Both the position numbers and the translations under genes were made by a program. The notes under the pieces are model-generated. The model was not told the DNA's origin. It saw nothing but the letters and a program-made list of their open reading frames with translations, and searched no databases. From the IMG/VR virus record IMGVR_UViG_3300037311_000078, positions 1 to 63,327 of that record: a DNA stretch of 63,327 nucleotides; one strand, written 5' to 3'. Shown here in pieces: positions 9,118-39,721 of this stretch (the first letter of the stretch is position 1; the number at the start of each line of letters is the position of its first letter). Origin of the DNA: a virus (taxonomy: Duplodnaviria > Caudoviricetes).

Positions 9118-9590
9118 AAGGATGGGATATGAAATCGGTAAATGAGGCTGCCAGGCGCGGCCTTTCAGTTAAAGCCCAGGACGGCAAGCCATTGGACATA
9201 TTACCGCAACCAACTCCGGTGTCGGTAAACAAGTTCAGGAACGAGCCTAAAACGGTTGACGGTATTCGTTTTGCCTCAAAGCTGGAAGCTAACCGGTACC
9301 TGCAATTGAAGATGATGAAGGCCGGTGGCCTCATTACCGATTTCATTATTCAGCAAACATATTACCTCGAGGTAAACGGCTTGCACATATGCCGGTATAT
9401 CGCCGATTTTGTAATCACCTGGGCCGATGGGAGGGTCACAATAGAAGATACAAAGGGGGTAGAAACCCCTGAGTTCAAGATAAAAAAGAAGTTGATGCTG
9501 GCAATACATGGCATCGAAATCGAATTAGTAAAACTGCAACAATCAAAACTTCACAACAATGGCAAAGTCAAAAAAAGTAGGCGCAGATAA
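9114..9590 (+). CDS. DUF1064-family PD-(D/E)XK nuclease-like protein
   Basis: NKFRN....VDGIRFASKLEA.RY, YIADF, EDTKG..T.EFKIKKKL. Confidence 0.85.
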   Translation: MKGWDMKSVNEAARRGLSVKAQDGKPLDILPQPTPVSVNKFRNEPKTVDGIRFASKLEANRYLQLKMMKAGGLITDFIIQQTYYLEVNGLHICRYIADFVITWADGRVTIEDTKGVETPEFKIKKKLMLAIHGIEIELVKLQQSKLHNNGKVKKSRRR

Positions 9591-11406
9591 CGCGCTCGCG
9601 CCGGTGGCAGGCATTGAAATGCTGGCCATCCACGAATTGGTTAACTCACCAACTAACCCAAGAAAAACCTACAGTATTCCAGAGCTCGAAGAGCTGGCAC
9701 GTTCTATCCGTGACCACGGCCTGATCAATCCAATTACCGTACGCCCGGTGTACAATGACGTTCACCCAAATATCCGTTCATGGTACGAGGTAGTTGCTGG
9801 TAACCGCCGATTCAAGGCTGCTCAGATTGCAGACATGGAGTTCGTGCCATGCATCGTGCGCGAACTGAGCGATGACCAGGTGCTTGATATCCAGATTGAC
9901 GAGAACCTTCACCGGCAAGATGTTCCACCGCTCGAAGAAGCGGACGCCTTCAAATCCCTCCTGGATGCCAAGCGGATCAGCATCAACGAGCTGGCCGCCC
10001 GGTTGAACAAGTCAGCGGCTTATATCTACCGTCGTATCAAGCTCACAAACCTTTCCGACAAATACCGGCCACACCTTCAATCCGGAGCGCTACCGGTTAC
10101 AACGGCAGAAATCTTTGCATCCTACCCGCAGGAAGCACAGGAAGTGATCTACAAAAACGTGTGCTACACGGAAGGTGAGCGTGTTATATTCTACGATTCG
10201 CGCAATGTTCGAAGCCGACTGGAGAGCCAAACCTGCAACAGCCTGCAAAAAGCAATATGGCCACTCGACCACGTTGATATGCAGCCTGGTTTACAGGCAT
10301 GCACTACATGCGAAAAGAATACTGCCGTGGCTACCCTCCTTTTCCCTGATGGCGCTGACGCTCCACGATGCACAGACAAAGCCTGTTGGAACATTAAGCA
10401 GACTGTTTGGATGGCTTTATCGATCCAGCAATGGAAGGCGTACTGCAAAAAAGAAGGCATAGAGGAGGTTTATGCCGACCTGTACTTCTACAGCTACGAC
10501 AAAAAGCCGTATGAGAAAATTTTTGATGGCTCCGAAAAGGTGCTTGGTAAGTTTGATTATGAGATTGTTGATAGGGATTACCCTGGTGCGTTCAAGGTGC
10601 TGTTTATTGGAGGGTCATCATGGGATGAAGAGAAGAATTCCTGGAACTTCAAAGTTGGATACATTGCATTGCGAAGGAAAAGCAGTGGCGAGCGAATTGA
10701 CTGGGAGATGGACAAGATACTGAAGGATGAAACCCTAACCCAGGAGGAGAAGGATCGTCAGGTGAAACTACTTGCCGAGAAGCGTCAGCGCCAACGGACT
10801 GAACAAGAGGTTCAGCACGAGCAAAAACAGTATCGGTTGAGACTGATTGAGAAATGCGCCGACGTAAAACCTGACTTTGATGCTGAACTTTTGCGGATAT
10901 TTCTTTACCGTGAACTTCTTGATCAGCAGACGCATACCCGTAAATGTTGGCATGTTATTTTCAGCGAAGAGGCTCAAGGCTGGAGGCCTGATTCTTTCCT
11001 CAAAGAGCACTATGACAATGGCGAGTGGAATGCCATGACGGTTGACGCATGGGTAAATATGCTGGAAGAAAAGGGAGAAATAACCCCGTTCGATGTATGG
11101 AATGATCTTCTTACTGAGGAAGAAATGAATCAGTTTGTGATAGAATCTCTATCAAAAGTGGCAGATTATAGGCTCAATCAGATGTTCACAATATCGGCGC
11201 TTTATAAAATCTATGACCGCCTTGGAAACTGGAACGATGATATCCCAACCGAACCCGTTGTAAGGTTTGCCAAACATGTAGGAATTGATACTGACAAAAC
11301 GTTGGAAGATGTAAAGCAAAAAATCTACGAAAAAAATCAAGGTAAGGCAGAGGCCGATCTTGACGACGACGAATATGATTACGACCTCAATGAGGATGAC
11401 GAATAA
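9559..11406 (+). CDS. ParB/RepB/Spo0J-family protein with long C-terminal extension
   Basis: NPRK, LARSI...GLINPITVR, VAGNRRFKAA, ENLHRQD..PLEEA, HTH, Cys cluster. Confidence 0.88.
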   Translation: MAKSKKVGADNALAPVAGIEMLAIHELVNSPTNPRKTYSIPELEELARSIRDHGLINPITVRPVYNDVHPNIRSWYEVVAGNRRFKAAQIADMEFVPCIVRELSDDQVLDIQIDENLHRQDVPPLEEADAFKSLLDAKRISINELAARLNKSAAYIYRRIKLTNLSDKYRPHLQSGALPVTTAEIFASYPQEAQEVIYKNVCYTEGERVIFYDSRNVRSRLESQTCNSLQKAIWPLDHVDMQPGLQACTTCEKNTAVATLLFPDGADAPRCTDKACWNIKQTVWMALSIQQWKAYCKKEGIEEVYADLYFYSYDKKPYEKIFDGSEKVLGKFDYEIVDRDYPGAFKVLFIGGSSWDEEKNSWNFKVGYIALRRKSSGERIDWEMDKILKDETLTQEEKDRQVKLLAEKRQRQRTEQEVQHEQKQYRLRLIEKCADVKPDFDAELLRIFLYRELLDQQTHTRKCWHVIFSEEAQGWRPDSFLKEHYDNGEWNAMTVDAWVNMLEEKGEITPFDVWNDLLTEEEMNQFVIESLSKVADYRLNQMFTISALYKIYDRLGNWNDDIPTEPVVRFAKHVGIDTDKTLEDVKQKIYEKNQGKAEADLDDDEYDYDLNEDDE

Positions 11407-15724: not shown

Positions 15725-16230
15725 AACGCAAACTAACCTCTTTGTCCTGGCCGGTAACCATATCCAACGGTGAACTCCACGTGCCACGTGAACGCATGTT
15801 CAAGGACATAGCCCAGCTGGCAGACAACCCGGAAGCTATGCTTCTGTTGAAGCCAATTGATAATCCAAAGACGCATCGACAGTTGCGTACATTCCACGGT
15901 CCAATCATCGAGCAGGTTCAGTCGTTCATCATGGCTACCGATGGGGTATACAAGTCGGTAGACCGCATCAAGTACGACCTGAAAGAACAGTTCCTGCAAA
16001 AGCGGAAGAAATACTGGGACGATGGAAGCCCGGTGATCTGGAAGATTCAGCACCCGACAAAGCCTGGTGTCTGTATGGAATGGCACGTGGAGGAGGTGCC
16101 TTCGCTTTCCGAACTCTCAATTGACGAGGCCCGCGGATTCATAAATGATATACTGGAATTCTACCTGCATGAGCGCGGCCTGACCATAGTCATTGATCCA
16201 GACGAGGCCGACCCTAAATTCAAAGACTAA
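15721..16230 (+). CDS. hypothetical protein (possibly NinB-like)
   Basis: ATGA-coupled ORF; KT.RQ...FH and SLSELS..E...FI patterns. Confidence 0.55.
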   Translation: MKRKLTSLSWPVTISNGELHVPRERMFKDIAQLADNPEAMLLLKPIDNPKTHRQLRTFHGPIIEQVQSFIMATDGVYKSVDRIKYDLKEQFLQKRKKYWDDGSPVIWKIQHPTKPGVCMEWHVEEVPSLSELSIDEARGFINDILEFYLHERGLTIVIDPDEADPKFKD

Positions 16231-16517
16231 CCTGGTAGGATAGTTACCACGATCATCTGATCGAACTGGTAACGCGGTTGCCCCTTTACCGTTCCACCGA
16301 ATTTACTGAGCGTTGACATGATCCACGAATCAGTCAACCGATTCGGCTTTCCAGCCTTTTCTTTCTTGCGCTCGCTGACTATGGCATACACCCGCTTATA
16401 GTCAGGATTGGTCGTAGTCGCTCCCCTGAATAAATCCGGGAATACATTTTCGATGAAATGATCAAGCGCCACGCGCAATTCGTTGTCTGTTTCGGTTTCT
16501 GTATGTTGTTGATTCAT
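16227..16517 (-). CDS. small divergent protein, putative regulator
   Basis: only convincing minus-strand gene; TACATTTG box (16523-16530, minus) 5 nt before the ATG. Confidence 0.65.
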   Translation of the reverse strand: MNQQHTETETDNELRVALDHFIENVFPDLFRGATTTNPDYKRVYAIVSERKKEKAGKPNRLTDSWIMSTLSKFGGTVKGQPRYQFDQMIVVTILPG

Positions 16518-17261
16518 AGCTGCAAATGTAGATTCAATTCGCCGATTCAAAAAATAATTTGAATCTCATTTGCTTTATTCAAATTCTTGTTTGAATCTTT
16601 GCAGAATCAACAATGGAATAATGACTACAGGAAAAGACATAGCGAATCGGCTCGGCATGCACCCGACCAGTCTCCAAAAGGCTGGAATCGGAATGGCCAT
16701 CGAGATTCAAGATACTGAATTGATTCGGTTTCTTGAAAGCAGAATCAAGCCATCGGGCGCATGGCGTCCGGAGAAAGCAGCCGTCGCTGCACAGTGGTAT
16801 TCAGAACTTACCGGAGCGTCGCTACCAGCACCAAGCCAGGATCACGAGCCAAATGCAAAGGAGCAGTTAACCCAGATACCCGCACGGCCACGTAAACCAC
16901 GGCAACAAATTGAATTTTCACCGGTGCAAAATGGTGCAATTGAAACTCACTGGCTGCGCAGCGACGCAACAATGGTCGCTCTATTGGTTGTTGCAACCGG
17001 CGCACAGATTCTGCATACCAGCAGCTTCTTTTATTTCATCACGCCGATTCCGGGGGAAGTGTTCAGAATCGTCACGGCGATTCTCGTTGGATTCGCTGTT
17101 GATTCAGCGGCACTGATTAAGACGATTCGAAGTGGAAACAGAATCTACCTGATCATATTCGCCATCGGTCACTTCTTCGTGAATCTGTCCGCGCACTTCC
17201 GATTCCTGGAAAGAACCGAATCAGACATCGACACCACGACATGGCTATTCTTTGGAGAATC
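16327..17261. repeat. dense cluster of GAWTC pentamers (25 counted)
   Basis: manual count of GAATC/GATTC; about 2 expected by chance. Confidence 0.9.
16523..16601. promoter_or_regulatory. divergent promoters with two palindromic operators ATTCAAA-N6-TTTGAAT
   Basis: palindromes at 16545-16564 and 16577-16596; -7 boxes TACATTTG (minus) and AATCTTTG (plus, 16594-16601). Confidence 0.7.
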
Positions 17262-17331
17262 ATGCCTGCTTTCATTTCTCGTCGCATTCGCAGTTTATTC
17301 ATACAGCGAGGCGTTTGCCTTTAAAAAGTAA
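16621..17331 (+). CDS. N-terminal HTH-like domain plus about 4 C-terminal TM helices
   Basis: TGKDIANRLGMHPTSL; Pro-rich linker; four hydrophobic segments. Confidence 0.7.
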   Translation: MTTGKDIANRLGMHPTSLQKAGIGMAIEIQDTELIRFLESRIKPSGAWRPEKAAVAAQWYSELTGASLPAPSQDHEPNAKEQLTQIPARPRKPRQQIEFSPVQNGAIETHWLRSDATMVALLVVATGAQILHTSSFFYFITPIPGEVFRIVTAILVGFAVDSAALIKTIRSGNRIYLIIFAIGHFFVNLSAHFRFLERTESDIDTTTWLFFGESCLLSFLVAFAVYSYSEAFAFKK

Positions 17332-17345
17332 TTCGTCAATCAGTC

Positions 17346-17666
17346 ATGGACTTCGTACTTCAAACCAGAACAGAAATTAAAACCCCATCGCAGCAGCTGT
17401 TGGAACGCCCTGCAGTATGGAGCGGCACAACAGCCGACTGGGGTACTATCGGCAGTGACATTGCTCCTATCACAAACCAGGAGACAAATGCGCTCAAATC
17501 AAAGTTGAAAACCACCACCCCTGATTTCATCAAAGCGGGGCGGATCAAACACCTGATGCTCCAGGGCAAAGGGCCATCGGATATCGCCAAGGCATTGCGC
17601 AACTTCGGGTGGGGGTATGGCCTGTCAACCATCAAGCATTATCACGCCGCCCTATCGGTGGCATAA
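17346..17666 (+). CDS. small protein with C-terminal HTH
   Basis: IKHLMLQGKGPSDIAKAL..GYGLSTIKHY. Confidence 0.6.
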   Translation: MDFVLQTRTEIKTPSQQLLERPAVWSGTTADWGTIGSDIAPITNQETNALKSKLKTTTPDFIKAGRIKHLMLQGKGPSDIAKALRNFGWGYGLSTIKHYHAALSVA

Positions 17667-17680
17667 TCAGTTCACGAGAG

Positions 17681-17704
17681 GGGTGCAAATTCTTTTTTGC
17701 ACCC
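17681..17704. promoter_or_regulatory. palindrome GGGTGCAAA-N6-TTTGCACCC
   Basis: perfect 9-bp inverted repeat in the intergenic gap. Confidence 0.6.
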
Positions 17705-17735
17705 TTAAATCATTCAAAATCAACGCCTTTAAAAA

Positions 17736-19448
17736 ATGATACGTGCAAAATTTTCCATAGAACTGCACCGCAATCCACCGGTGCTTCACCTGACCGAGAG
17801 GGGTAGTGTGTATCAGATTCGCTTGAATGATGGCAGCACATCCATGATGATAGGCGATATCCCCGTTCCTGTTCAGGGGTGCCCATTCCCAAGCGAGCTT
17901 GCACGTGCGCGGTTCTGGGCATTCCTACATCGAAACTTCAACAACCTGGTGACAACCTTTGCAATCGTATTGTCATTGGTCATGCTTCATGTTTTGTTGA
18001 TGATCACATACCCGGGTGAAATGATCGGCGCTACGGTATCTGTATTCTCATTCTGGATGAATGCAGCACTTGTTGTAACCGGATCAGCCGCGTTGATCGC
18101 ATGGACAGTGCGAAGATTCTGGGGTGGTGTAACAATCAAATTCGGTGTTGATGAAGAAATGCAACTGCTGACGGCCGGAAGTATCAATATCGCCCCGGAT
18201 GTGTTGATCGCGTCTGAATCACTCGATGAATCGCCGGAAAGCTTCGAAGGTCGCATGCGGTCGGCGTTTGAAGAAACGACCGGCACGCAGAAATGGGTAC
18301 TCGTCGTCCCGCGCGGCCAATGGAAATTCATGGTCATCAAGAATTCAGATTTGCCAGACGCCAAACCAATGTATTCTGAGTTTCTGCGCAGCGCCCCATT
18401 CGATCCTATGCCATTCGGTGAATTGGAGATCGCACGAGATTCAAACCTGTACACCAAAGAATCGTATGGCAGTTACCTAGAGTACCTGCGTCACCTCACT
18501 GATGAATACCGCATTTGGTCTGAGGCTGCCAAGCAAGGCGCCGTGGATCCATTTGCATCAATCGCCAACGCTATGAAAAAAGCAATGAACACCATCACCC
18601 TACTCTTGATGTTTACCCTGAGCATGAGCGCCCAGAAAACAACCCAGCTGGCAGCATACCTTGGCGATCGCGCAACGATCTCCGCACCGGAAGCTGGCAA
18701 GCAGGTTGACTTCGTATTCGAGCGCCGGGAAATATCAGTTCGCGCAAACGGAAAGGCCAACTATATCGACCTGATACAGTCGGTACCATTTTTCTCAGAT
18801 GCTGATGACGCCGGGAGGCTGCTCCTGGTAAAGGTGGATGGCCAGAAGATATTGCCGAAAGACCCGGCAAAAGCAGTTGAGCCAAAGGCTGAATTGAAAA
18901 CAGAAAAGATCGGAGATGGATCGGTATCAGAGGTTCCTGTTGACCTGAATAGCAGCATGTTTGACCAGATACCAGATTCTGCGGCATTTCAGAAGATGAA
19001 GTACGCAGACCTGGCCGACAAGCGCCGGCAATGGGCAAAGGTTGAACCGATGGTAGATTACTACATGTGGAAGTTCTATCTATGGCTCCCACTTCTTGCC
19101 GTAATATTCGCATACTTCTGGTGGGTAGCATCATTGGGCAGCGCCGAAAGCGTGGATGATCTATTAGGGCATGCCGTGGTAGGTAACATAATCCTTAAAT
19201 CATACGTGATCAGCAAAGCAATGCTGTTTGTATTGCTTATCCTGATCGGGGCGGTATTCTCCCTCCAATGGGGAGTTACCTACTACTACACCTACGACGT
19301 CTCGTTTTGGATGCTGGTTCGTATCGCATTAATTGCATGGCTGTCGTACCAGGTAAGCAAGAAGGTGCTGCCTAACCTGAAACGGGATACTCCTGCAGGA
19401 GGTGTAGTTTACAATGGACGATACAATAACCGTCAATTACCTGGATAA
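17736..19448 (+). CDS. polytopic membrane protein of unknown function (570 aa)
   Basis: 2 N-proximal TMs, a central hydrophobic segment, about 3 C-terminal TMs. Confidence 0.75.
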   Translation: MIRAKFSIELHRNPPVLHLTERGSVYQIRLNDGSTSMMIGDIPVPVQGCPFPSELARARFWAFLHRNFNNLVTTFAIVLSLVMLHVLLMITYPGEMIGATVSVFSFWMNAALVVTGSAALIAWTVRRFWGGVTIKFGVDEEMQLLTAGSINIAPDVLIASESLDESPESFEGRMRSAFEETTGTQKWVLVVPRGQWKFMVIKNSDLPDAKPMYSEFLRSAPFDPMPFGELEIARDSNLYTKESYGSYLEYLRHLTDEYRIWSEAAKQGAVDPFASIANAMKKAMNTITLLLMFTLSMSAQKTTQLAAYLGDRATISAPEAGKQVDFVFERREISVRANGKANYIDLIQSVPFFSDADDAGRLLLVKVDGQKILPKDPAKAVEPKAELKTEKIGDGSVSEVPVDLNSSMFDQIPDSAAFQKMKYADLADKRRQWAKVEPMVDYYMWKFYLWLPLLAVIFAYFWWVASLGSAESVDDLLGHAVVGNIILKSYVISKAMLFVLLILIGAVFSLQWGVTYYYTYDVSFWMLVRIALIAWLSYQVSKKVLPNLKRDTPAGGVVYNGRYNNRQLPG

Positions 19449-19936
19449 TGAATCTCGAAAAGTTTTTTGAAAAAATCGGCCTTGAGTGGACGTACATCGT
19501 TGGAAGCCCGCAATATCCGTGGCGCTTCAAGGTAGGGCGTTCTACATCGTTCAGCGTACGCGCACGAGACATCGCGCGTACAATGTCGAGGGAGGCTGGC
19601 ATAGATGTGAGAGTAGTACCGTTTTTTAAATTACCGATGTTCTGGGCAGGCCGGAGTGAACGAGCCATTCACACATGGCCAATGTTTCGCTACTTCAAAG
19701 CGAACATGCCCGGGAGCGGATGTACTGAGTGGGCTTGGGTTCTGAATCCTTATGTTGGAACCCTCGCCTACTCTTTTTGCACATACCACGGTATCGAGTG
19801 CGCAACTTGGGTAGGTGCTATTGTTTTTGTAGCGCCGCTGGCTTTCGATTTTGCATTCATCTTAATCACTATCGCCATGCTCCAGTACGGGTTCGTTGGT
19901 GTAATTATCTACGCAATATGGAACACCTTTTGCTGA
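19448..19936 (+). CDS. T5orf172/GIY-YIG-like domain with C-terminal TM helices
   Basis: TYIV..FKVGRS....R, ERAIH, GSGCTEW; hydrophobic C-terminus. Confidence 0.6.
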   Translation: MNLEKFFEKIGLEWTYIVGSPQYPWRFKVGRSTSFSVRARDIARTMSREAGIDVRVVPFFKLPMFWAGRSERAIHTWPMFRYFKANMPGSGCTEWAWVLNPYVGTLAYSFCTYHGIECATWVGAIVFVAPLAFDFAFILITIAMLQYGFVGVIIYAIWNTFC

Positions 19937-20052
19937 TAAAACATACATTCGCAGACGTGCCGACGCATGCTATCCTGATAAACCTTGCCATCTTTGCTGC
20001 AATATTCCTTATCATAAGAACAAAATACACCAGTGAACAAAAGCCACGTTGA
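19918..20052 (+). CDS. small single-TM protein (44 aa)
   Basis: ATG at 19918; AILINLAIFAAIFLII; bridges the flanking genes. Confidence 0.5.
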   Translation: MEHLLLIKHTFADVPTHAILINLAIFAAIFLIIRTKYTSEQKPR

Positions 20053-20947
20053 TATTGCACAGGTAATCCTCACCGATGACAGCCTACTTGGTTTCCTCGC
20101 ATGGGCACTGGTGGCTGCGATGTTGCTGCAGGTGCTCAAGCTCACCGGCGCGATCGGTAGCGGTATCGGCTGGGTATGGCGCAACCGTGGCACGGTATTA
20201 CTTCGCCCTTCGTGGCCAATGTTCCTGTCAGTTTCTGCCATCGGCCTTTGCGCCTGGATGTTTCGTTACCAGCTTAACGATCAAATTCAGTACATCGAGC
20301 AGGTGTATTTACGCCCGGTGTACATGAACAACGATACCAGCTATTGGGCTTTGTCCATGTATGAAACCGAACTCAAGCGCCATGTGAGCGAATCGGAGTT
20401 TCAGATTGTAAAGCAGGAGACTGATCGCCTGGCGCACGAGCTTCAAAGCTCACCACTTGCGCTATATGAGGTATGCTATTCTGAATGCGGACTGGATCCA
20501 TTCGCGTGCAACGTGGATGATCGCACAGGAGATACCGTGGCCGTTGGGTGGATACAATTTACGCGTGCTGGAATCAAACAGGTATCTGTGCAGGGGAAGC
20601 AGATAACATGGCCACAGGTAAAGTCCTGGGTGAAGTCACGTAATTTGTCCGCCATGATGGAAGCTACCAGGTCATATATGACAGGCCGGGCAAATGGCCG
20701 CGCATTACCGACATCCACAGAAATTTACATTGCCGTGTTTGCCCCTGCATTTGTTGGGTACGGAGACGATAAAACGCTGTATTCAATCAGCAGTTGGCCG
20801 GCAGCTTACTACGATAATAAAGGGCTGGATGGATATGGCCTCGTAAATGGAAAGATCGTTAAAGGTGCTGCATTTATGGACGGTAAGATCACCGTTCAGG
20901 ATATGCGATTGCACCTTGCTCTCAAAAAATCACTGTTTCTCGCATGA
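20033..20947 (+). CDS. membrane-anchored lytic transglycosylase (lysozyme-like fold)
   Basis: 2 N-terminal TMs; YSECGLDP.A.N, AVGWIQFT, IYIAVFAP, YYDNKGLD, DGKIT. Confidence 0.75.
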   Translation: MNKSHVDIAQVILTDDSLLGFLAWALVAAMLLQVLKLTGAIGSGIGWVWRNRGTVLLRPSWPMFLSVSAIGLCAWMFRYQLNDQIQYIEQVYLRPVYMNNDTSYWALSMYETELKRHVSESEFQIVKQETDRLAHELQSSPLALYEVCYSECGLDPFACNVDDRTGDTVAVGWIQFTRAGIKQVSVQGKQITWPQVKSWVKSRNLSAMMEATRSYMTGRANGRALPTSTEIYIAVFAPAFVGYGDDKTLYSISSWPAAYYDNKGLDGYGLVNGKIVKGAAFMDGKITVQDMRLHLALKKSLFLA

Positions 20948-21246
20948 AAATTATTCTTATCTTCATAGCCGGGTATATCGCCCGGCACATTATCGGCATA
21001 CTATTCAACCGGGTTTTCAGGAAACCAAGCGCCACCCAGGTAGAGGTTACAATGGATGATATTCAGGATTCGGTAATATCCTACGACCGTGGGAAAAACT
21101 GGTTCGTCCGAACGAAAGACGGCGTTTTTGTAAAAGTTGGCTATAACTCAATTCAATCAATACTCGATTTCTATGAGAATCAAAATAAAACAGGCGCTGA
21201 TCACACATCCGCTGACGCGGCCAGCAATCAGGACAGTAAACGGTAA
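20944..21246 (+). CDS. small protein with N-terminal membrane anchor
   Basis: MKIILIFIAGYIA; ATGA-coupled. Confidence 0.55.
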   Translation: MKIILIFIAGYIARHIIGILFNRVFRKPSATQVEVTMDDIQDSVISYDRGKNWFVRTKDGVFVKVGYNSIQSILDFYENQNKTGADHTSADAASNQDSKR

Positions 21247-21946
21247 GCACTACAAACTGCGCGCGGTCCGCGCAATTATTTCCCATTGGACGGCCAATAC
21301 CAACCGTGGCGCCAACGCGATGGCCAATCGTAATTACTTCAACAACGGATCGCCCGGGCCCGGTGGAACGTTCAGAGCGGCCAGCGCTCACTACTGCGTG
21401 GACAGCAACGAGATCGTGCAGTGCCTACCTGATGACGAGGTTGGTTTCCACATCGGAGGATCTCGCTACTATGAATCTGGGCGCCGTATCATGGCCGGTT
21501 ATAAAAGTTTGACGCCAAATTATTTCGCCATAGGTTTTGAGATGTGCGTCAACAGCGATGGCGATTGGAACAAAACATATCAGTCCAGCGCAAAGCTGGC
21601 AGCATATCTGTTGTTCAAGCACAAGTTGACAATCAATGATCTGCTACGTCATTACGACATCACCGGCAAGGATTGCCCGAAAATGATGATCGCAGAGAAT
21701 GAATGGCAGAAATTCAAAGACACGGTATCTGAACATCTCGCTATTTTGAATAAGGTTTGTTTCCACGCAAGAGTTGGCGCATCAAATCTGAATGCCCGAT
21801 CTGGACCAGGTACACAACACCAGGTCGTCAGGGTTTTAAATCAGGGCGAACCTGTTGTATGTTATCCTGGTGCATCAACAAACGGTTGGGTTCCTATCGG
21901 CGAAAACGAATTTGTCAACTCTAAATATCTCATTTATGAAATGTAA
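21173..21946 (+). CDS. N-acetylmuramoyl-L-alanine amidase (Amidase_2) with SH3b domain; endolysin
   Basis: IISHWTAN, ASAHYCVD, IGFEMC, RHYDITGKDCP; LNARSGPGT. Confidence 0.92.
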   Translation: MRIKIKQALITHPLTRPAIRTVNGKHYKLRAVRAIISHWTANTNRGANAMANRNYFNNGSPGPGGTFRAASAHYCVDSNEIVQCLPDDEVGFHIGGSRYYESGRRIMAGYKSLTPNYFAIGFEMCVNSDGDWNKTYQSSAKLAAYLLFKHKLTINDLLRHYDITGKDCPKMMIAENEWQKFKDTVSEHLAILNKVCFHARVGASNLNARSGPGTQHQVVRVLNQGEPVVCYPGASTNGWVPIGENEFVNSKYLIYEM

Positions 21947-22268
21947 AATCGAAGCCATTGCCGCGTTGACGTTGGAACCGAAGGAAGGTGGATCCACGTT
22001 GACGCGGACAGAATTCGCCCTTGAATTGTCAGACAATATGATACGGTCTGAATACATGGACGAGAGTGGAAAGCCGACAAAGCTCGGCGTTCATGCCATC
22101 ACATCCTGTTTTATCCAGGGACTTTTGGGAAGTATCCACTATGCGCACCAGAACGGCATGCGCGATAGCGCTGAACACCTGCGGTACATCATCTCAGAAT
22201 TGGAGCGCGGGTTCGTTAGACCGGTAGAAATCGAACATGGAAAGTTTAATCCGCTTCACAATGGATAA
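21936..22268 (+). CDS. hypothetical protein
   Basis: overlapping operon ORF. Confidence 0.6.
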   Translation: MKCKIEAIAALTLEPKEGGSTLTRTEFALELSDNMIRSEYMDESGKPTKLGVHAITSCFIQGLLGSIHYAHQNGMRDSAEHLRYIISELERGFVRPVEIEHGKFNPLHNG

Positions 22269-22509
22269 AGCAATCGCCACAGACTTTTTCAAAAAAGGGA
22301 TGATTGTTGTCAATCCACGTTATATCCCTGAATATGACAATCATCCAAATGTTGAGCAGGCCTGGATGCTTTGCATTATTGACGACATAGTTCCACATCG
22401 ACAACGTAAAAGGTTAGTCGCATACAAGTTAAGGACAATAAAATCGGGGTTTTATATATCCAGCGTATCGCTCGATGACCTTTTAGAATCAAATCGGTTT
22501 CTTATTTAG
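22261..22509 (+). CDS. hypothetical protein
   Basis: overlapping operon ORF. Confidence 0.5.
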   Translation: MDKAIATDFFKKGMIVVNPRYIPEYDNHPNVEQAWMLCIIDDIVPHRQRKRLVAYKLRTIKSGFYISSVSLDDLLESNRFLI

Positions 22510-22913: not shown

Positions 22914-23135
22914 ATGGAACTGCCTGCATTCCATCCGAACTCAACCCCAACACCTGATCGGTGGTCAGGACAAATGGTGTACAAGGGTGTCAACGCAACC
23001 ATCAACTTCGTACCATACGCTGCACTACTGATGTTCGCAGTGTTCAAATACGAAGGGGATAACTGCCAGACATTGTACGACGGATCGGACGAGTGCATGG
23101 CAGTTTCAATTTTCAACCAACACTGCTCAACATGA
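22914..23135 (+). CDS. hypothetical protein
   Basis: operon packing. Confidence 0.5.
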   Translation: MELPAFHPNSTPTPDRWSGQMVYKGVNATINFVPYAALLMFAVFKYEGDNCQTLYDGSDECMAVSIFNQHCST

Positions 23136-23701
23136 GACATCTGATTATCCTCCTCCTGGCGTTTATCGCCACCACCACAACCCTCGTTTCCCAGGAACCC
23201 ACATTCATCGAATTCACCATCGAATCAGTCCACGACGGAGACACCTGGGTAGCCAAAGACGCCGCTGGCAACAAATTTACGTGCCGTCCTATCGGCTACG
23301 ATGCACCCGAAGTTCGCAGCAACATCATCCTGGAAACCCAGCCATACGGCCGAATATCCGGTGACACGCTCAGGAGACTTATCAAAGGCAAAAAAATCCT
23401 GCTCGATACCACAGCGCTGACAATCAAGGATCACCGCGACGTTTATGGCAGGTTACTCGTAGAACCATATTTCGCTGACAGCTCATCCATTGCCCTATTC
23501 ATGATAAAGAACGGGTACGGATGGTACGCATATACAGCCAACCGAAGGTTTCCCAAAATGAACACCATCCTGAAAGATGCCCACCGTACCGCCCGAGCTG
23601 ATAATATTGGGCTATGGGCCGGTTATCTGGATGCCAAAGGCAAAAAGCGATATGCAGAAGCTCCTTGGACCTGGCGAAAGAAATACTCATTGAGAGAGTA
23701 A
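23132..23701 (+). CDS. thermonuclease (SNase-like) with signal peptide
   Basis: VHDGDT, R.IGYDAPE, QPYG, DVYGRLL, GLW, PW.WR. Confidence 0.92.
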   Translation: MRHLIILLLAFIATTTTLVSQEPTFIEFTIESVHDGDTWVAKDAAGNKFTCRPIGYDAPEVRSNIILETQPYGRISGDTLRRLIKGKKILLDTTALTIKDHRDVYGRLLVEPYFADSSSIALFMIKNGYGWYAYTANRRFPKMNTILKDAHRTARADNIGLWAGYLDAKGKKRYAEAPWTWRKKYSLRE

Positions 23702-23818
23702 AGACGCATCGAAGTGCAAATTTTTCCATTCATGATAGAACGCGACGGCAGCAATTGTCGGCGCGTTTTTTGTAGCATTCAGTACCTTCGTACATTCATT
23801 ACCAAAATCACACACAGA

Positions 23819-24469
23819 ATGAGAAATCAAATCCTCTTTTCCCTGGCATTTTTTGCCCTCATCTTCCAGGCCAGCGCCCAGAAGGTCTATTACAAATTCC
23901 CGGTCGACTACACCAAGCAGGAACCCACCCACACCGTCACCCTGCCCAGCTCCAAAGACAACAAACTAAAGTTCTACGGGAACAACCTGTACCTGTACGA
24001 CAATGTCGACCTTACCTACAGGAAGGTTTCCAAAGTCCCGTTCTACGCGGAGATGAGCATTTCAAACGACACATCAACCGTGACGTTCGCCGCAACTACA
24101 CCCACCGTACTGCAAGACCTGACGGCCGGCCCTATCTCCGGGTTCACCATGATCAGCGATTCACTACTCAGGTACGACGGCAATGAAAGCGGCGTATTCC
24201 GCGTAAGCTATTCGGCAAGCCTGTCATTCACTGAAGCGGCGAACATCCTGAATGGATATGTCCAGGTCAACGGCGTAGAGGTAACACGTTCGAGATTCCG
24301 ACAGACAGCAACCACCGCGAACACGGAGCGCATCAATATCGCCGGGTCTTTCCTTACCACACTCACCCCCGATGCCCTACTGAGGTTTATACTGGTGCCA
24401 TCCACCCATACAGGAAGCGACGACATTCTGGTATATCAGTTCAACCTAAACATCGTGCAGCTCAAATAG
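23819..24469 (+). CDS. signal-peptide protein with beta-sandwich-like C-terminus
   Basis: MRNQILFSLAFFALIFQASA|Q; G.FRVSYS..VQVNG pattern. Confidence 0.6.
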   Translation: MRNQILFSLAFFALIFQASAQKVYYKFPVDYTKQEPTHTVTLPSSKDNKLKFYGNNLYLYDNVDLTYRKVSKVPFYAEMSISNDTSTVTFAATTPTVLQDLTAGPISGFTMISDSLLRYDGNESGVFRVSYSASLSFTEAANILNGYVQVNGVEVTRSRFRQTATTANTERINIAGSFLTTLTPDALLRFILVPSTHTGSDDILVYQFNLNIVQLK

Positions 24470-39126: not shown

Positions 39127-39468
39127 ATGCCCAAGTACTTAGACGACTTCAACCGTATTATCGACTCATCCTCTGTGGCCGTGCTTTCCGGTCTCAGTCG
39201 AGTGTTATTTATGCAGGCCAATGACTATAAAGCGCGCATTACGACGTTTATAGCATCGGTATGCTTTGGACTTGTTACTGGCATAGTTACCGGAAACATT
39301 GAATCGCTGAATGGATGGCGCGATATAATCGTGGCAATTGCAGCGCTGGCAGCCAAGGAGATCATTGAATACCTGTCGGCGAAGATGAAGGACCCATTGA
39401 GATTTTATTCCGACATTCGCAACATCAAAAACAATGACAAATCAACTGATGAACCCAAGTCTGATTAA
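39127..39468 (+). CDS. putative holin
   Basis: small, 2-3 TMs, charged C-terminus. Confidence 0.55.
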   Translation: MPKYLDDFNRIIDSSSVAVLSGLSRVLFMQANDYKARITTFIASVCFGLVTGIVTGNIESLNGWRDIIVAIAALAAKEIIEYLSAKMKDPLRFYSDIRNIKNNDKSTDEPKSD

Positions 39469-39721
39469 CGCCGTTGGCTGCCTCGCAGCTGCCATATACT
39501 TGGCCATATCCATGAAGAATACACACCGGGATGATGCAGACAAGATGCTGCTTAATTTCGAGTGGTCACTTCTCGCGTCACTCATATTGATCGGCCTCGA
39601 TCAACTTCGAGATGTCATTAACCTGCTCGGCGGCATACCATCTTTGGCCTCGTTTGGAGTTACCGTTATGTGGATTTCTTCCATTCTGTTCTCACGCCAT
39701 TTGAAGGTAGCGTACAGATAA
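39434..39721 (+). CDS. small membrane protein
   Basis: 3 hydrophobic segments. Confidence 0.55.
   Translation: MTNQLMNPSLINAVGCLAAAIYLAISMKNTHRDDADKMLLNFEWSLLASLILIGLDQLRDVINLLGGIPSLASFGVTVMWISSILFSRHLKVAYR

What the first reader, a model, noticed from the sequence alone, without database searches (positions are those of the whole stretch)
16621..21246. Candidate undescribed system: DNA-membrane-cell-wall module
Seen: seven co-oriented, mostly overlapping genes: HTH+4TM, HTH, 570-aa polytopic protein, GIY-YIG-like+TM, 44-aa TM, 2TM+transglycosylase, TM-anchored protein; own switch and motif array. A separate amidase and holin-like genes exist. Known: Streptomyces Spd proteins combine TM and DNA-binding parts for intramycelial spread, and transfer systems use anchored transglycosylases. 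Inference: an envelope-spanning apparatus for DNA tethering or cell-to-cell spread (attractive if the host is filamentous), or a superinfection-exclusion complex. I saw no FtsK/VirB4/VirD4 ATPase, which weakens the active-transfer idea.
Basis: partly seen in the sequence, partly recalled or inferred. Interest (0 to 1): 0.85.

Follow-up and report, generated by a model that had tools for sequence, protein, structure and literature searches.

The report
Conserved phage membrane wall-cutter/nuclease module
This uncultured phage carries a conserved, undescribed set of inner-membrane proteins that pairs a cell-wall-cutting enzyme facing outwards with a DNA-cutting-type domain facing inwards; it may destroy rival DNA entering the infected cell, but its function is untested.

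Summary
The genes are real and they do co-occur elsewhere. In 22 phage-type loci with enough upstream DNA, g3 (C-half) is present in 22 and g4 in 21. The one exception keeps g4 11 kb away.

- **g6:** a membrane hairpin plus a lytic-transglycosylase fold (Foldseek 9.6e-5), with an invariant Glu.
- **g4:** a T5orf172/GIY-YIG domain plus two TM helices, with Tyr/Arg/Glu invariant in 31 of 31 sequences.
- **g3:** a fusion of two halves. It has no Pfam or fold relative.
- **g1:** a membrane protein. A phage-specific array of short DNA repeats lies at its 5' end.
- **gm:** a small divergent gene that belongs to the unit.

The module is almost the only thing shared with one otherwise unrelated phage. 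Copies of g6 and the g3 C-half also exist as chromosomal genes in one Saprospiraceae clade.

No ATPase, integrase or known holin/spanin match was found.

My best guess (0.35) is a SNIPE-like gate that cuts DNA entering an infected cell. A lysis role is the main rival.

The scan noted a similar-sounding module before, on other DNA (e1-6002716). I did not test whether the two are homologous.

The parts
16227..16517 (-). gm: a small divergent gene (96 aa from the ATG; the TTG at 16550 would give 107 aa). It is the only convincing minus-strand gene here and is a putative regulator of the module.
   Evidence: ORF. Its C-terminal motif RY(E/Q)F..V.I is shared with the small minus-strand genes just upstream of g1 in L002, L008 and L019 (by eye). 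A TACATTTG box on the minus strand lies at 16523-16530. No Pfam, NCBIfam or PADLOC match.
16544..16596 (.). Two palindromes between gm and g1: GATTCAAA-N6-TTTGAATC (16544-16565) and ATTCAAA-N6-TTTGAAT (16577-16596).
   Evidence: Read directly. Their outer bases are GAWTC sites.
16327..17261 (.). Array of 25 GAWTC sites in two clusters (16511-16746 and 17007-17261), spanning the intergenic region and most of g1.
   Evidence: 24-25 sites per 935 bases here, against a median of 2 and a next-best of 6 elsewhere. Sites fall in all three reading frames. Many spacings are about 11, 20 or 40 bases. Relatives carry other short direct repeats at the same place.
16621..17331 (+). g1: 236 aa, with an N-terminal HTH-like motif (by eye), a charged linker and 3-4 TM segments.
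   Evidence: A family HMM finds it upstream of g2 in 5 of 11 viral/genome loci, and in L071, L082, L083, L093 and L096. L004 and L008 hold another protein of like build at this place. No Pfam or PDB support for the HTH.
17346..17666 (+). g2: 106 aa, soluble, with a conserved C-terminal HTH-like stretch (VK.LM..G....I...L...G.GYGER.IK.DHAAL).
   Evidence: Alignment A6. Present in 11 of 11 viral/genome loci and 8 of 11 metagenome loci with enough upstream DNA. PDB profile hits are weak.
17736..18584 (+). g3 N-half: a small beta domain, a TM hairpin and an alpha/beta domain, all predicted cytoplasmic.
   Evidence: AlphaFold model, mean pLDDT 80. Occurs as a separate ~280-300-aa protein in some relatives. 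No Pfam match in 48 members. No fold match at E<=0.001 in PDB or BFVD. Topology is my inference from charge distribution.
18585..19448 (+). g3 C-half: a signal-like TM segment (MKKAMNTITLLLMFTLSMSAQ), a periplasmic beta domain, a flexible linker and 3 TM helices.
   Evidence: Stand-alone homologues with a signal peptide are chromosomal genes in Saprospiraceae-type genomes, next to an Omp85/POTRA gene.
19448..19936 (+). g4: an N-terminal T5orf172 (GIY-YIG superfamily) domain plus a C-terminal TM hairpin with a conserved P.P.D turn.
   Evidence: Pfam T5orf172 in 9 of 11 members, best 3.2e-6. Y16, K28, G30, S32, R38, E71 and E94 are invariant in 31 of 31 distinct sequences, and N100 in 97%. No PADLOC match.
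19918..20052 (+). g5: 44 aa, one TM segment, overlapping the end of g4 and the start of g6.
   Evidence: Separate small TM ORFs of 38-66 aa ending just inside g6 occur in about 10-12 of 33 loci, with no sequence conservation (I set aside by eye the rows that are in-frame ends of g4). Not scanned against PHROGs.
20033..20947 (+). g6: an N-terminal TM hairpin (predicted N-out, C-out) plus a lysozyme-like/lytic-transglycosylase domain (about residues 100-304).
   Evidence: AlphaFold pLDDT 88.5. Foldseek: 9udh phage lytic transglycosidase 9.6e-5, phiKZ gp144 2.6e-3, then MltE. phrog_196 8.6e-10. E151 (in YSECG) is invariant in 55 of 55 distinct sequences, cellular ones included.
20944..21246 (+). 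g7: 100 aa with an N-terminal TM segment. It is a lineage-specific addition, not part of the conserved core.
   Evidence: 70% identical over 100 aa in L063, with the same 74-base overlap with the amidase gene. An ORF with a hydrophobic N-terminus just downstream of g6 occurs in only 4 of 27 loci.
21173..21946 (+). Adjacent Amidase_2 + SH3_3 endolysin. It is a neighbour and not part of the conserved module.
   Evidence: Pfam 2.1e-18 and 1.7e-06; PHROG endolysin 7.8e-35. Amidase_2 was not found in 5 related virus records. It is present in L063.

Best explanation
The module builds an inner-membrane assembly.

Proposed parts:
- g3 is a six-helix scaffold. It joins cytoplasmic domains to a periplasmic domain on a flexible linker.
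- g6 is anchored beside it by a hairpin and cuts peptidoglycan locally. Other envelope-spanning machines use dedicated transglycosylases in this way (recalled).
- g4 holds a GIY-YIG-type nuclease at the cytoplasmic face.
- g1, g2 and gm are DNA-binding or regulatory parts. They act on the repeat array and palindromes at the head of the operon.

Proposed role: the assembly sits on the route by which DNA crosses the envelope. It cuts DNA that enters an already infected cell, which is superinfection exclusion in the manner of SNIPE. The membrane tether keeps the nuclease away from the phage's own replicating DNA.

Shown: the genes, their co-occurrence, the folds or families of g4 and g6, and the conserved catalytic-type residues.

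Inferred: topology, complex formation, nuclease and transglycosylase activity, timing, and the target DNA.
For: Linkage:
- Across 22 phage-type loci with at least 3.3 kb upstream of g6, the g3 C-half is present in 22 and g4 in 21.
- The one exception keeps g4 11 kb away in the same genome.
- In L097 and L102 the order changes to g3-g6-g4 but the genes stay together.
- Against the complete phage G378, g3, g4 and g6 are the only window proteins with a substantial match, out of 92 ORFs queried; the one other hit is a 52-aa piece. An HMM adds a g2 relative there. In G378 the module lies on the opposite strand to its neighbours.

Parts:
- The g4 family matches T5orf172, with Tyr/Arg/Glu invariant in 31 of 31 sequences, and it always carries a C-terminal TM hairpin.
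- g6 has a transglycosylase fold with an invariant Glu, and its anchor region has conserved residues.
- In most relatives g3 fuses a cytoplasmic half to a periplasmic half.

Precedent: SNIPE is a membrane-bound GIY-YIG nuclease that cleaves injected phage DNA. Its membrane tether prevents self-cleavage (PMC13190303, sections 5 and 9).

The window has its own endolysin and a holin-like gene elsewhere. The module therefore need not be the lysis system.
Against: - There is no functional or expression evidence of any kind.
- g4 is not a SNIPE family member. It has no DUF4041 domain, no PADLOC hit, and its anchor is at the other end of the protein.
- Why exclusion would need an active wall-cutting enzyme is not explained.
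- A module of about 4.7 kb is large for exclusion.
- In the window the module runs without a break into g7 and the amidase endolysin, with a 74-base overlap. That suggests shared timing with lysis.
- The complete relative G378 shows no Pfam-recognisable endolysin other than g6.
- g6 and the g3 C-half persist without the nuclease as chromosomal genes in one bacterial clade. That half therefore has a use of its own.
- The repeat array at g1 has no role in this model beyond regulation.
Confidence: 0.35

Rival explanations
1. The module is part of the lysis or egress system. g6 is a membrane-tethered endolysin. The small membrane proteins (g5, g7) and g3 control its release or disrupt the envelope. 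The g3 C-half acts like a spanin, reaching from the inner membrane towards the outer membrane.
For: - g6 is muralytic by fold, with an invariant Glu.
- In the window the module abuts and overlaps the amidase endolysin. It is followed by exported proteins, among them a secreted nuclease.
- In many relatives the module lies just upstream of the terminase genes.
- Lipoprotein-like or secreted small proteins follow g6 in L009-L012, L019 and L005 (by eye).
- No Pfam-recognisable endolysin was found among the 75 ORFs of complete G378. None reached E<=0.001 among the 74 ORFs of G379.
- Amidase_2, Phage_lysozyme and SLT were absent from 4-5 relatives.
Against: - A cytoplasmic nuclease-type domain, HTH-like proteins and a DNA repeat array have no place in known lysis cassettes.
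- The g6 anchor is strongly hydrophobic and conserved in sequence, unlike a releasable SAR signal (the SAR properties are recalled).
- The module has its own divergent gene and palindromes. It lies among early or replication genes in G379 and on the opposite strand in G378.
- G379 has a sub-threshold Peptidase_M15_4 hit in another ORF, so it may have its own endolysin.
- The window has a separate amidase and a holin-like gene.
- g6-like genes are stable single-copy chromosomal genes in 27 of 61 related genomes, so the enzyme is not lethal in itself.
Confidence: 0.25
2. The module tethers, segregates or moves phage DNA at the membrane. g1 binds the repeat array in its own gene and fixes the genome to the membrane. 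g4 nicks there. g3 and g6 form a passage through membrane and wall. The purpose would be replication or packaging organisation, or DNA passage between cells of a filament.
For: - Every locus with a g1-like gene that I examined (8, the window included) has a local array of short, mostly same-sense repeats at the 5' end of that gene. The repeat sequence differs from phage to phage.
- g1 joins an HTH-like motif to a membrane anchor.
- Cellular homologues come mostly from Saprospiraceae-type genomes: 9 of 13 genome loci are Saprospirales-level. I recall these to be often filamentous.
Against: - No FtsK/SpoIIIE or AAA_10 ATPase in the window or 4 relatives, and no room for one inside the contiguous core.
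- The HTH of g1 is unverified.
- The motifs were chosen after looking at the data.
- The array could equally serve gm, g2 or the 615-aa ParB-type protein at 9559-11406.
- The phage has a separate replication module.
Confidence: 0.12
3. The module remodels the host envelope during infection for some other end, for example changing the wall or outer-membrane links or blocking receptors. The nuclease-like domain would be a non-catalytic DNA- or protein-binding part.
For: - The g6 plus g3 C-half pair works without g4 in bacteria, next to an Omp85/POTRA gene.
- T5orf172 domains can act as DNA-binding regulators. CapR of PLE is cited as a T5ORF172 protein in 10.1101/2021.07.12.452122 (one passage read).
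Against: The catalytic-type residues of g4 are invariant in 31 of 31 sequences, which argues for an active enzyme. No positive evidence points to any particular envelope effect.
Confidence: 0.13
4. g4 is a selfish homing endonuclease gene that merely sits among membrane genes.
For: T5orf172 genes act as homing endonucleases in ICP1-type phages (10.1101/2023.03.23.533998; search listing and abstract only). In G379, g4 lies 11 kb away from the rest of the module.
Against: g4 always carries the TM hairpin with a conserved turn. It is found in 21 of 22 loci beside g3/g6 and in 3 of 3 complete relatives. A selfish gene would be sporadic.
Confidence: 0.03

Closest known systems
SNIPE (PD-lambda-1), the membrane-bound anti-phage nuclease of E. 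coli (Saxton et al., Nature 2026, PMC13190303; abstract and sections 5 and 9 read)
   Same: A GIY-YIG/T5orf172-type nuclease domain is held at the cytoplasmic face of the inner membrane. The tether is proposed to spare resident DNA and to expose entering DNA.
   Different: SNIPE is one bacterial protein with an N-terminal anchor and a DUF4041 domain. Here a 162-aa protein has a C-terminal hairpin and no DUF4041. It is phage-encoded and is always found with a six-TM protein and a membrane-anchored transglycosylase. It has no PADLOC match.
Phage lytic transglycosylases (PDB 9udh; phiKZ gp144, 3bkh) and bacterial MltE
   Same: The fold of the g6 C-terminal domain (Foldseek 9.6e-5 and 2.6e-3). A conserved Glu.
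   Different: g6 has a conserved N-terminal two-helix membrane anchor. It is not part of a tail or a classical lysis cassette. The Pfam SLT model does not match it.
Holin-endolysin-spanin cassettes (lambda S/R/Rz/Rz1 type; recalled)
   Same: Small membrane proteins sit beside a muralytic enzyme, near the terminase genes in many relatives. An endolysin abuts the module in the window.
   Different: There are no holin or spanin family matches among the proteins scanned. The module also has nuclease-type and HTH-like parts, a 570-aa polytopic protein, and its own divergent regulator and repeat array.
Superinfection exclusion of virulent phages (T4 Imm and Sp; recalled)
   Same: Phage-encoded membrane and periplasmic proteins that act at the envelope against later-arriving phages.
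   Different: T4 Sp inhibits a lysozyme and Imm blocks entry. Neither is a nuclease or a wall-cutting enzyme. There is no sequence relation.
Streptomyces TraB/clt/Spd transfer and spread system, and dedicated transglycosylases of type IV secretion (VirB1; recalled)
   Same: Short repeats as a cis site, membrane proteins and a wall-cutting activity occur together.
   Different: No FtsK-like or VirB4-like motor was found in the phage. No family relation was found.

Membership tests
Lytic transglycosylase / lysozyme-like superfamily (g6) | Lysozyme-like fold | tested here: met
   Model pLDDT 88.5. Foldseek: 9udh 9.6e-5 (prob 1.00), 3bkh 2.6e-3, then MltE, MltF and Slt.
Lytic transglycosylase / lysozyme-like superfamily (g6) | Catalytic Glu conserved | tested here: inconclusive
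   E151 is invariant in 55 of 55 distinct sequences. I did not superpose it on the catalytic Glu of a solved enzyme.
Lytic transglycosylase / lysozyme-like superfamily (g6) | Match to the curated Pfam SLT model | tested here: not met
   No Pfam hit for g6. PF01464 finds nothing in the window in six frames. PHROG phrog_196 8.6e-10 and a PDB profile hit at E=0.029 do match.
T5orf172 / GIY-YIG superfamily (g4) | Match to Pfam PF10544 | tested here: met
   9 of 11 family members match, best 3.2e-6. The window's own protein scores 18.3 bits against a cut-off of 20.
T5orf172 / GIY-YIG superfamily (g4) | Conserved Tyr, Arg, Glu and Asn of the active site (their roles are recalled) | tested here: met
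   Y16, R38 and E71 are conserved in 31 of 31 sequences, and N100 in 97%.
T5orf172 / GIY-YIG superfamily (g4) | Nuclease activity | not testable with these tools
   Needs an enzyme assay.
SNIPE / PD-lambda-1 | DUF4041 domain between the anchor and the nuclease | tested here: not met
   g4 is 162 aa. Pfam reports only T5orf172 and MUG113 in the family.
SNIPE / PD-lambda-1 | Match to defence-system models | tested here: not met
   PADLOC: 0 relevant hits for 5 g4-family members.
SNIPE / PD-lambda-1 | Membrane anchor with a cytoplasmic nuclease domain | tested here: inconclusive
   Two C-terminal hydrophobic segments in all 11 aligned members. The side of the membrane is inferred, not measured. 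The anchor is at the opposite end of the protein from SNIPE's.
Holin-endolysin-spanin lysis cassette | Holin or spanin family members in the block | tested here: not met
   PHROGs and Pfam give no lysis family for g1-g4, g6 or g7. g5 was not scanned. The only holin hit in the window is at 39127-39468.
Holin-endolysin-spanin lysis cassette | Soluble or SAR endolysin in the block | tested here: inconclusive
   The amidase abuts the module in the window and in L063 only. g6 is muralytic but firmly anchored.
Conjugation-like or TraB-type DNA transfer | FtsK/VirB4/VirD4-type ATPase | tested here: not met
   PF01580 and PF12846: 0 of 5 virus records. VirD4-type models were not searched.
Integrated temperate phage moron | Integrase in the genome | tested here: not met
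   PF00589 and PF00239: 0 of 5 records. A ParB-type protein is present, so a plasmid-like lifestyle is not excluded.

The most novel reading that the evidence does not exclude
The phage builds an envelope-spanning DNA gate of a kind not described before. A membrane-tethered DNA-binding protein would hold a phage-specific repeat array at the membrane. A tethered GIY-YIG enzyme would nick or cut DNA there. A six-helix scaffold with a dedicated wall-cutting enzyme would open the wall. The gate would pass or tether phage DNA across the envelope, for instance between neighbouring cells of a filamentous Saprospiraceae host, without a dedicated motor ATPase. Its envelope half has been domesticated by one host lineage.
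Probability: 0.08. Interest if true: 0.95.

Novelty: new variant of a known kind. Interest (0 to 1): 0.68.

Why it matters
**If the best reading holds.** This would be a phage-encoded, multi-protein counterpart of the SNIPE principle, which tells self from non-self DNA by where the DNA is. Here it would be joined to a wall-cutting enzyme and a new six-helix scaffold. That would show that phages use the principle against each other.

**Whatever the function.** The module defines several protein families with no Pfam or NCBIfam model among those scanned (g1, g2, g3, g6, gm). No g3 or g6 relative, by protein or DNA, was found in the isolated-phage collection; only the enzymatic domain of g6 finds distant tail-lysin matches. 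The g3 family alone has 173 representatives at 50% identity.

**Possible domestication.** The envelope half (g6 plus the g3 C-half) forms one clade of chromosomal genes nested among phage sequences. This is a candidate case of a bacterial lineage taking over phage envelope genes, and its direction could be tested.

**Lysis in Bacteroidota phages.** The module bears on how these phages burst their hosts, because some relatives show no other recognisable wall-cutting enzyme.

Tried and rejected
- **Isolated phages:** blastn of 16000-22500 and tblastn of g3 against the phage collection found no match.
- **Single-protein scans of viral contigs:** nothing for g3 or g6. An alignment of g6 relatives then worked.
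- **g3 alignment (A2):** it had no stretch conserved enough for a contig scan.
- **Protein Atlas:** no usable hit for g3 whole or for residues 126-290.
- **Fused forms of g6:** none found among longer proteins, which is weak evidence.
- **Complex prediction** of g3 residues 285-570 with g6: no verdict (score 0.00, controls not run). This counts neither for nor against binding.
- **Sequencing runs:** no RNA holder listed. One run labelled RNA-Seq is probably DNA. Laying contigs of 4 runs gave related strains but nothing on expression.
- **GAWTC as a methylation array:** rejected for lack of support. The phage methyltransferase at 11436-12233 matches only general class I SAM methyltransferase families, not DNA adenine methylase models. 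GAWTC is not enriched genome-wide (148 found, 154 expected).
- **Phage copying a widespread host machine:** rejected. The cellular g6-like gene was found only in the query genome itself among 201 genomes sampled across the phylum, and likewise among 121 sampled across the family. It was found in 27 of 61 close relatives. The cellular sequences form one clade inside phage diversity (the root is at the midpoint only, so the direction is an inference).
- **Virion ejection proteins:** considered and set aside. The segments are strongly hydrophobic multi-pass anchors, and the relatives are tailed phages with tape-measure genes.
- **Papers:** four searches found no description of such a module in the listings I read. 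They were T5orf172 + transmembrane + phage (3 papers); membrane-anchored + lytic transglycosylase + superinfection exclusion + phage (73, 12 listed); T5orf172 alone (36, 30 listed); and Saprospiraceae + bacteriophage + lytic transglycosylase (670, 10 listed). Supplements were not opened.

Full report
**What the window is.** It is a complete 63,327-base virus record. Almost all genes lie on the + strand and there are no tRNA genes. No close relative exists among isolated phages. The large terminase is about 30% identical to that of Bacteroides phages.

**The observation.** The seven ORFs exist as described.
- g1 is 16621-17331, g2 17346-17666, g3 17736-19448, g4 19448-19936, g5 19918-20052, g6 20033-20947 and g7 20944-21246.
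- The last four junctions overlap.
- A lone minus-strand gene, gm (16227-16517), faces away from g1.
- Between gm and g1 lie two palindromes, GATTCAAA-N6-TTTGAATC at 16544-16565 and ATTCAAA-N6-TTTGAAT at 16577-16596.
- GAWTC is not enriched genome-wide: 148 found against 154 expected. Yet 25 copies fall in 16327-17261, where the median for a window of that size is 2 and the next-best count is 6. They sit in all three reading frames, often about 11, 20 or 40 bases apart. This is a constraint at the DNA level and not a by-product of coding.

**Identity of the parts: g6.**
- Pfam and NCBIfam name nothing in g6.
- PHROGs match the C-terminal two thirds to the enzymatic end of 'baseplate hub' proteins at 8.6e-10.
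- tblastn finds annotated transglycosylase domains of Klebsiella and other phages.
- A model built on 29 relatives (pLDDT 88.5) matches a phage lytic transglycosidase (9udh, 9.6e-5), phiKZ gp144 (2.6e-3) and MltE.
- E151 in the motif YSECG is invariant in 55 of 55 distinct sequences.
- The N-terminal two helices are strongly hydrophobic and carry conserved residues. This looks like a fixed anchor with specific contacts.
- From the charge distribution I infer N-out and C-out, which puts the enzyme in the periplasm.

**Identity of the parts: g4.**
- g4 scores just below the T5orf172 cut-off on its own. Nine of 11 family members match, best 3.2e-6.
- Y16, K28, G30, S32, R38, E71 and E94 are invariant in 31 of 31 distinct sequences, and N100 in 97%. 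The Tyr/Arg/Glu/Asn set is what I recall as the GIY-YIG active site.
- All members end in two hydrophobic helices joined by a conserved P.P.D turn.

**Identity of the parts: g3.**
- g3 has 173 relatives among representatives at 50% identity. They come either as one protein of 500-600 aa or as two proteins of about 280-300 aa that split at residue ~285.
- That is exactly where g3 has an internal signal-like stretch.
- The AlphaFold model (pLDDT 80) shows, in order: a small beta domain, a helical hairpin, an alpha/beta domain, a further helix, a beta domain, a disordered linker and three long helices.
- No Pfam family appears in 48 members. No fold match at E<=0.001 appears in PDB or BFVD.
- I infer that the N-half domains are cytoplasmic and the beta domain of the C-half is periplasmic.

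**Identity of the parts: g1, g2 and gm.**
- g1 has an HTH-like motif by eye, a charged linker and 3-4 TM segments. No profile supports the HTH.
- g2 has a conserved C-terminal HTH-like stretch with weak PDB support.

**Co-occurrence.**
- A search with g6 found 28 relatives at 38-97% identity, plus one partial match.
- Their alignment recovered 15 viral, 13 genome and 41 metagenome loci. I scored these with family HMMs.
- *Viral/genome phage-type loci with at least 3.3 kb upstream of g6 (11 loci):* g2, g3N and g3C are present in 11 of 11. g4 lies between g3 and g6 in 10 of 11. g1 is present in 5 of 11. L004 and L008 hold another protein of like build at the g1 position.
- *Metagenome loci of the same kind (11 loci; duplicates of the viral contigs were not removed):* g3C 11 of 11, g4 11 of 11, g3N 9 of 11, g2 8 of 11.
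- In L097 and L102, g4 follows g6 instead of preceding it.
- The one locus without g4 (L005) belongs to a complete genome that keeps g4 11 kb away. So 3 of 3 complete relatives hold g2, g3N, g3C, g4 and g6.
- A search from the g4 side found 12 loci, 11 of them on contigs already found with g6. The twelfth also has g6.
- Of the window's 92 called ORFs, only g3, g4, g6 and one 52-aa piece match the complete phage G378. There the module lies on the + strand among minus-strand genes.
- The small divergent gene recurs upstream of g1 in L002, L008 and L019 and shares a C-terminal motif with gm.
- All eight loci with a g1-like gene that I examined, the window included, have short repeats concentrated at the 5' end of that gene. 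They are mostly same-sense in the relatives, of both senses in the window. The words differ between phages: GCGGAAA x7 in L005, (A)ATTCGG x7 in L002, GCGAACG x7 in L019, GGACA x8 in L004. I picked the words after seeing the data, so the counts are descriptive.
- g5 has positional counterparts only. g7 is conserved only in L063, together with the amidase and the same 74-base overlap.

**An unexpected finding: cellular copies.**
- Nine of the 13 genome loci come from Saprospiraceae, Lewinellaceae or Saprospirales assemblies.
- In ten loci the context is chromosomal. Either a g6-like gene stands alone beside RecX, LytTR, PorZ or a GH20 hexosaminidase gene, or it is followed by a g3C-like gene and an Omp85/POTRA gene.
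- In 5 of 5 genomes with a lone g6-like gene, a g3C-like gene lies elsewhere. In the 3 whose surroundings I fetched it again sits beside an Omp85/POTRA gene. That protein has a signal peptide, a beta domain, a long Pro/Ala-rich linker and three TM helices.
- The g6-like gene was found only in the query genome itself among 201 genomes sampled across the phylum, and likewise among 121 sampled across the family. It was found in 27 of 61 close relatives.
- In a tree of 55 g6 sequences, all 13 cellular-context rows (plus 2 rows without context) form one clade with 100/98 support. Its sister is a phage sequence and it lies among much more diverse phage lineages.
- I read this as one capture of the g6 plus g3C pair by a bacterial lineage. 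The root is only a midpoint, so the direction is an inference.
- Two things follow. The envelope half works as a pair without the DNA-related half, and it is not lethal in itself.

**What is absent.**
- No tyrosine or serine recombinase in the window or 4 relatives.
- No FtsK/SpoIIIE or AAA_10 ATPase.
- No PADLOC defence model of note.
- Amidase_2 is absent from 5 relatives.
- A Pfam scan of all ORFs of at least 70 aa in two complete relatives showed no classical endolysin family: 74 ORFs in G379 and 75 in G378.
- G379 does have a sub-threshold Peptidase_M15_4 hit (E=0.0013, 15.6 bits) in another ORF.
- Phage_lysozyme and SLT models found nothing in the five records.

**How it most likely works.** The architecture is an inner-membrane assembly. 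A wall-cutting enzyme and a linker-borne domain face the periplasm. A nuclease-type domain and further domains face the cytoplasm. The g3 fusion couples the two sides. HTH-like proteins, a private divergent gene and a repeat array sit at the head of the operon.
- The one experimentally understood precedent for a membrane-tethered GIY-YIG nuclease is SNIPE. It cuts phage DNA as it is injected, and its tether prevents attack on resident DNA (PMC13190303). That lead came from earlier notes of this scan.
- A phage has the same need to spare its own DNA. I therefore put superinfection exclusion by cutting entering DNA first, at 0.35.
- In this reading the transglycosylase makes room in the wall for the periplasmic part, as dedicated transglycosylases do for other envelope-spanning machines (recalled).
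- The model does not explain why the envelope half is kept alone in bacteria. It also does not explain what the repeat array does beyond regulation.

**The rivals.**
- *Lysis (0.25)* has real support. The module runs straight into g7 and the amidase in the window. It lies before the terminase genes in many relatives. Some relatives show no other wall-cutting enzyme. Against it stand the nuclease-type and HTH-like parts, the private regulator, the variable genomic position and the fixed anchor.
- *DNA tethering or transfer (0.12)* is suggested by the arrays and by g1, but it lacks a motor.
- *Other envelope remodelling (0.13)* and a *selfish homing endonuclease (0.03)* complete the list.

**Comparison and novelty.**
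- g6 is a new, membrane-anchored branch of the lysozyme-like transglycosylases.
- g4 is a T5orf172 domain with a new anchor.
- g1, g2, g3 and gm have no described family.
- The module is not a member of the SNIPE family, because the DUF4041 domain and the PADLOC model are both not met.
- Four paper searches found no description of it.
I did not test whether the two are homologous.
- New here are the g3 split/fusion, the conserved divergent gene and arrays, the order variants, the lack of integrase and motor, and the cellular clade with its Omp85 neighbour.

**Verdict.**
- The function is open.
- Interest 0.68.

Noticed in passing
L050:8368-11464 (also L051, L052, L024, L026, L028, L029): In Saprospiraceae-type genomes, a conserved pair sits next to homoserine kinase. 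One gene encodes a g3C-like inner-membrane protein with a signal peptide, a beta domain, a long Pro/Ala-rich linker and 3 TM helices. The other encodes an Omp85/POTRA outer-membrane protein. This may be an undescribed envelope-spanning pair.
   Followed up: partly
window 9559-11406: A 615-aa protein with ParB_N and HTH_ParB domains (4.8e-23 and 6.6e-09). No integrase or resolvase was found in the genome, so a plasmid-like lifestyle is not excluded. This protein could also be what binds the GAWTC array.
   Followed up: no
window 39127-39721: Two small overlapping genes encode two-TM proteins. The first matches a PHROG holin family (1.3e-4). They lie between the tape-measure gene and the head maturation protease gene, 18 kb from the amidase.
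   Followed up: no
window 21173-21283: The amidase gene must start at 21173 or earlier to keep its first conserved residues, so it overlaps g7 by 74 bases. The overlap is conserved in L063. A terminator-like hairpin (21258-21274, plus a T-run) lies inside this overlap zone.
   Followed up: partly
window 23132-23701: A secreted staphylococcal-nuclease-like protein with a signal peptide (PHROG nuclease, 5.6e-09). It is followed by another exported protein (23732-24469) and lies between the endolysin and the terminase genes.
   Followed up: no
window 16695-16996: In contigs of two wastewater runs, the middle of g1 is replaced by about 294 unrelated letters, while the flanks stay 88-95% alike. This stretch encodes the charged linker and lies between the two GAWTC clusters.
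   Followed up: no
L097:5050-7793 and L102:4597-6960: An order variant of the module: g3C is followed directly by g6, and g4 comes after g6. In the g6 tree, L097 is the sister of the cellular clade.
   Followed up: partly
G379:C1:16387-16455: A sub-threshold Peptidase_M15_4 match (E=0.0013, 15.6 bits against a cut-off of 25) in a 178-aa open frame of a complete relative. It may be that phage's endolysin.
   Followed up: no
L011:8368-9615 and L019:5462-6693: In several relatives, g6 is followed by three genes before the large terminase gene. They encode a lipoprotein-like protein of about 140-170 aa, a small protein with a SEC-C-type CPCGSG..K.CH motif, and a small-terminase-like protein (by eye).
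   Followed up: no
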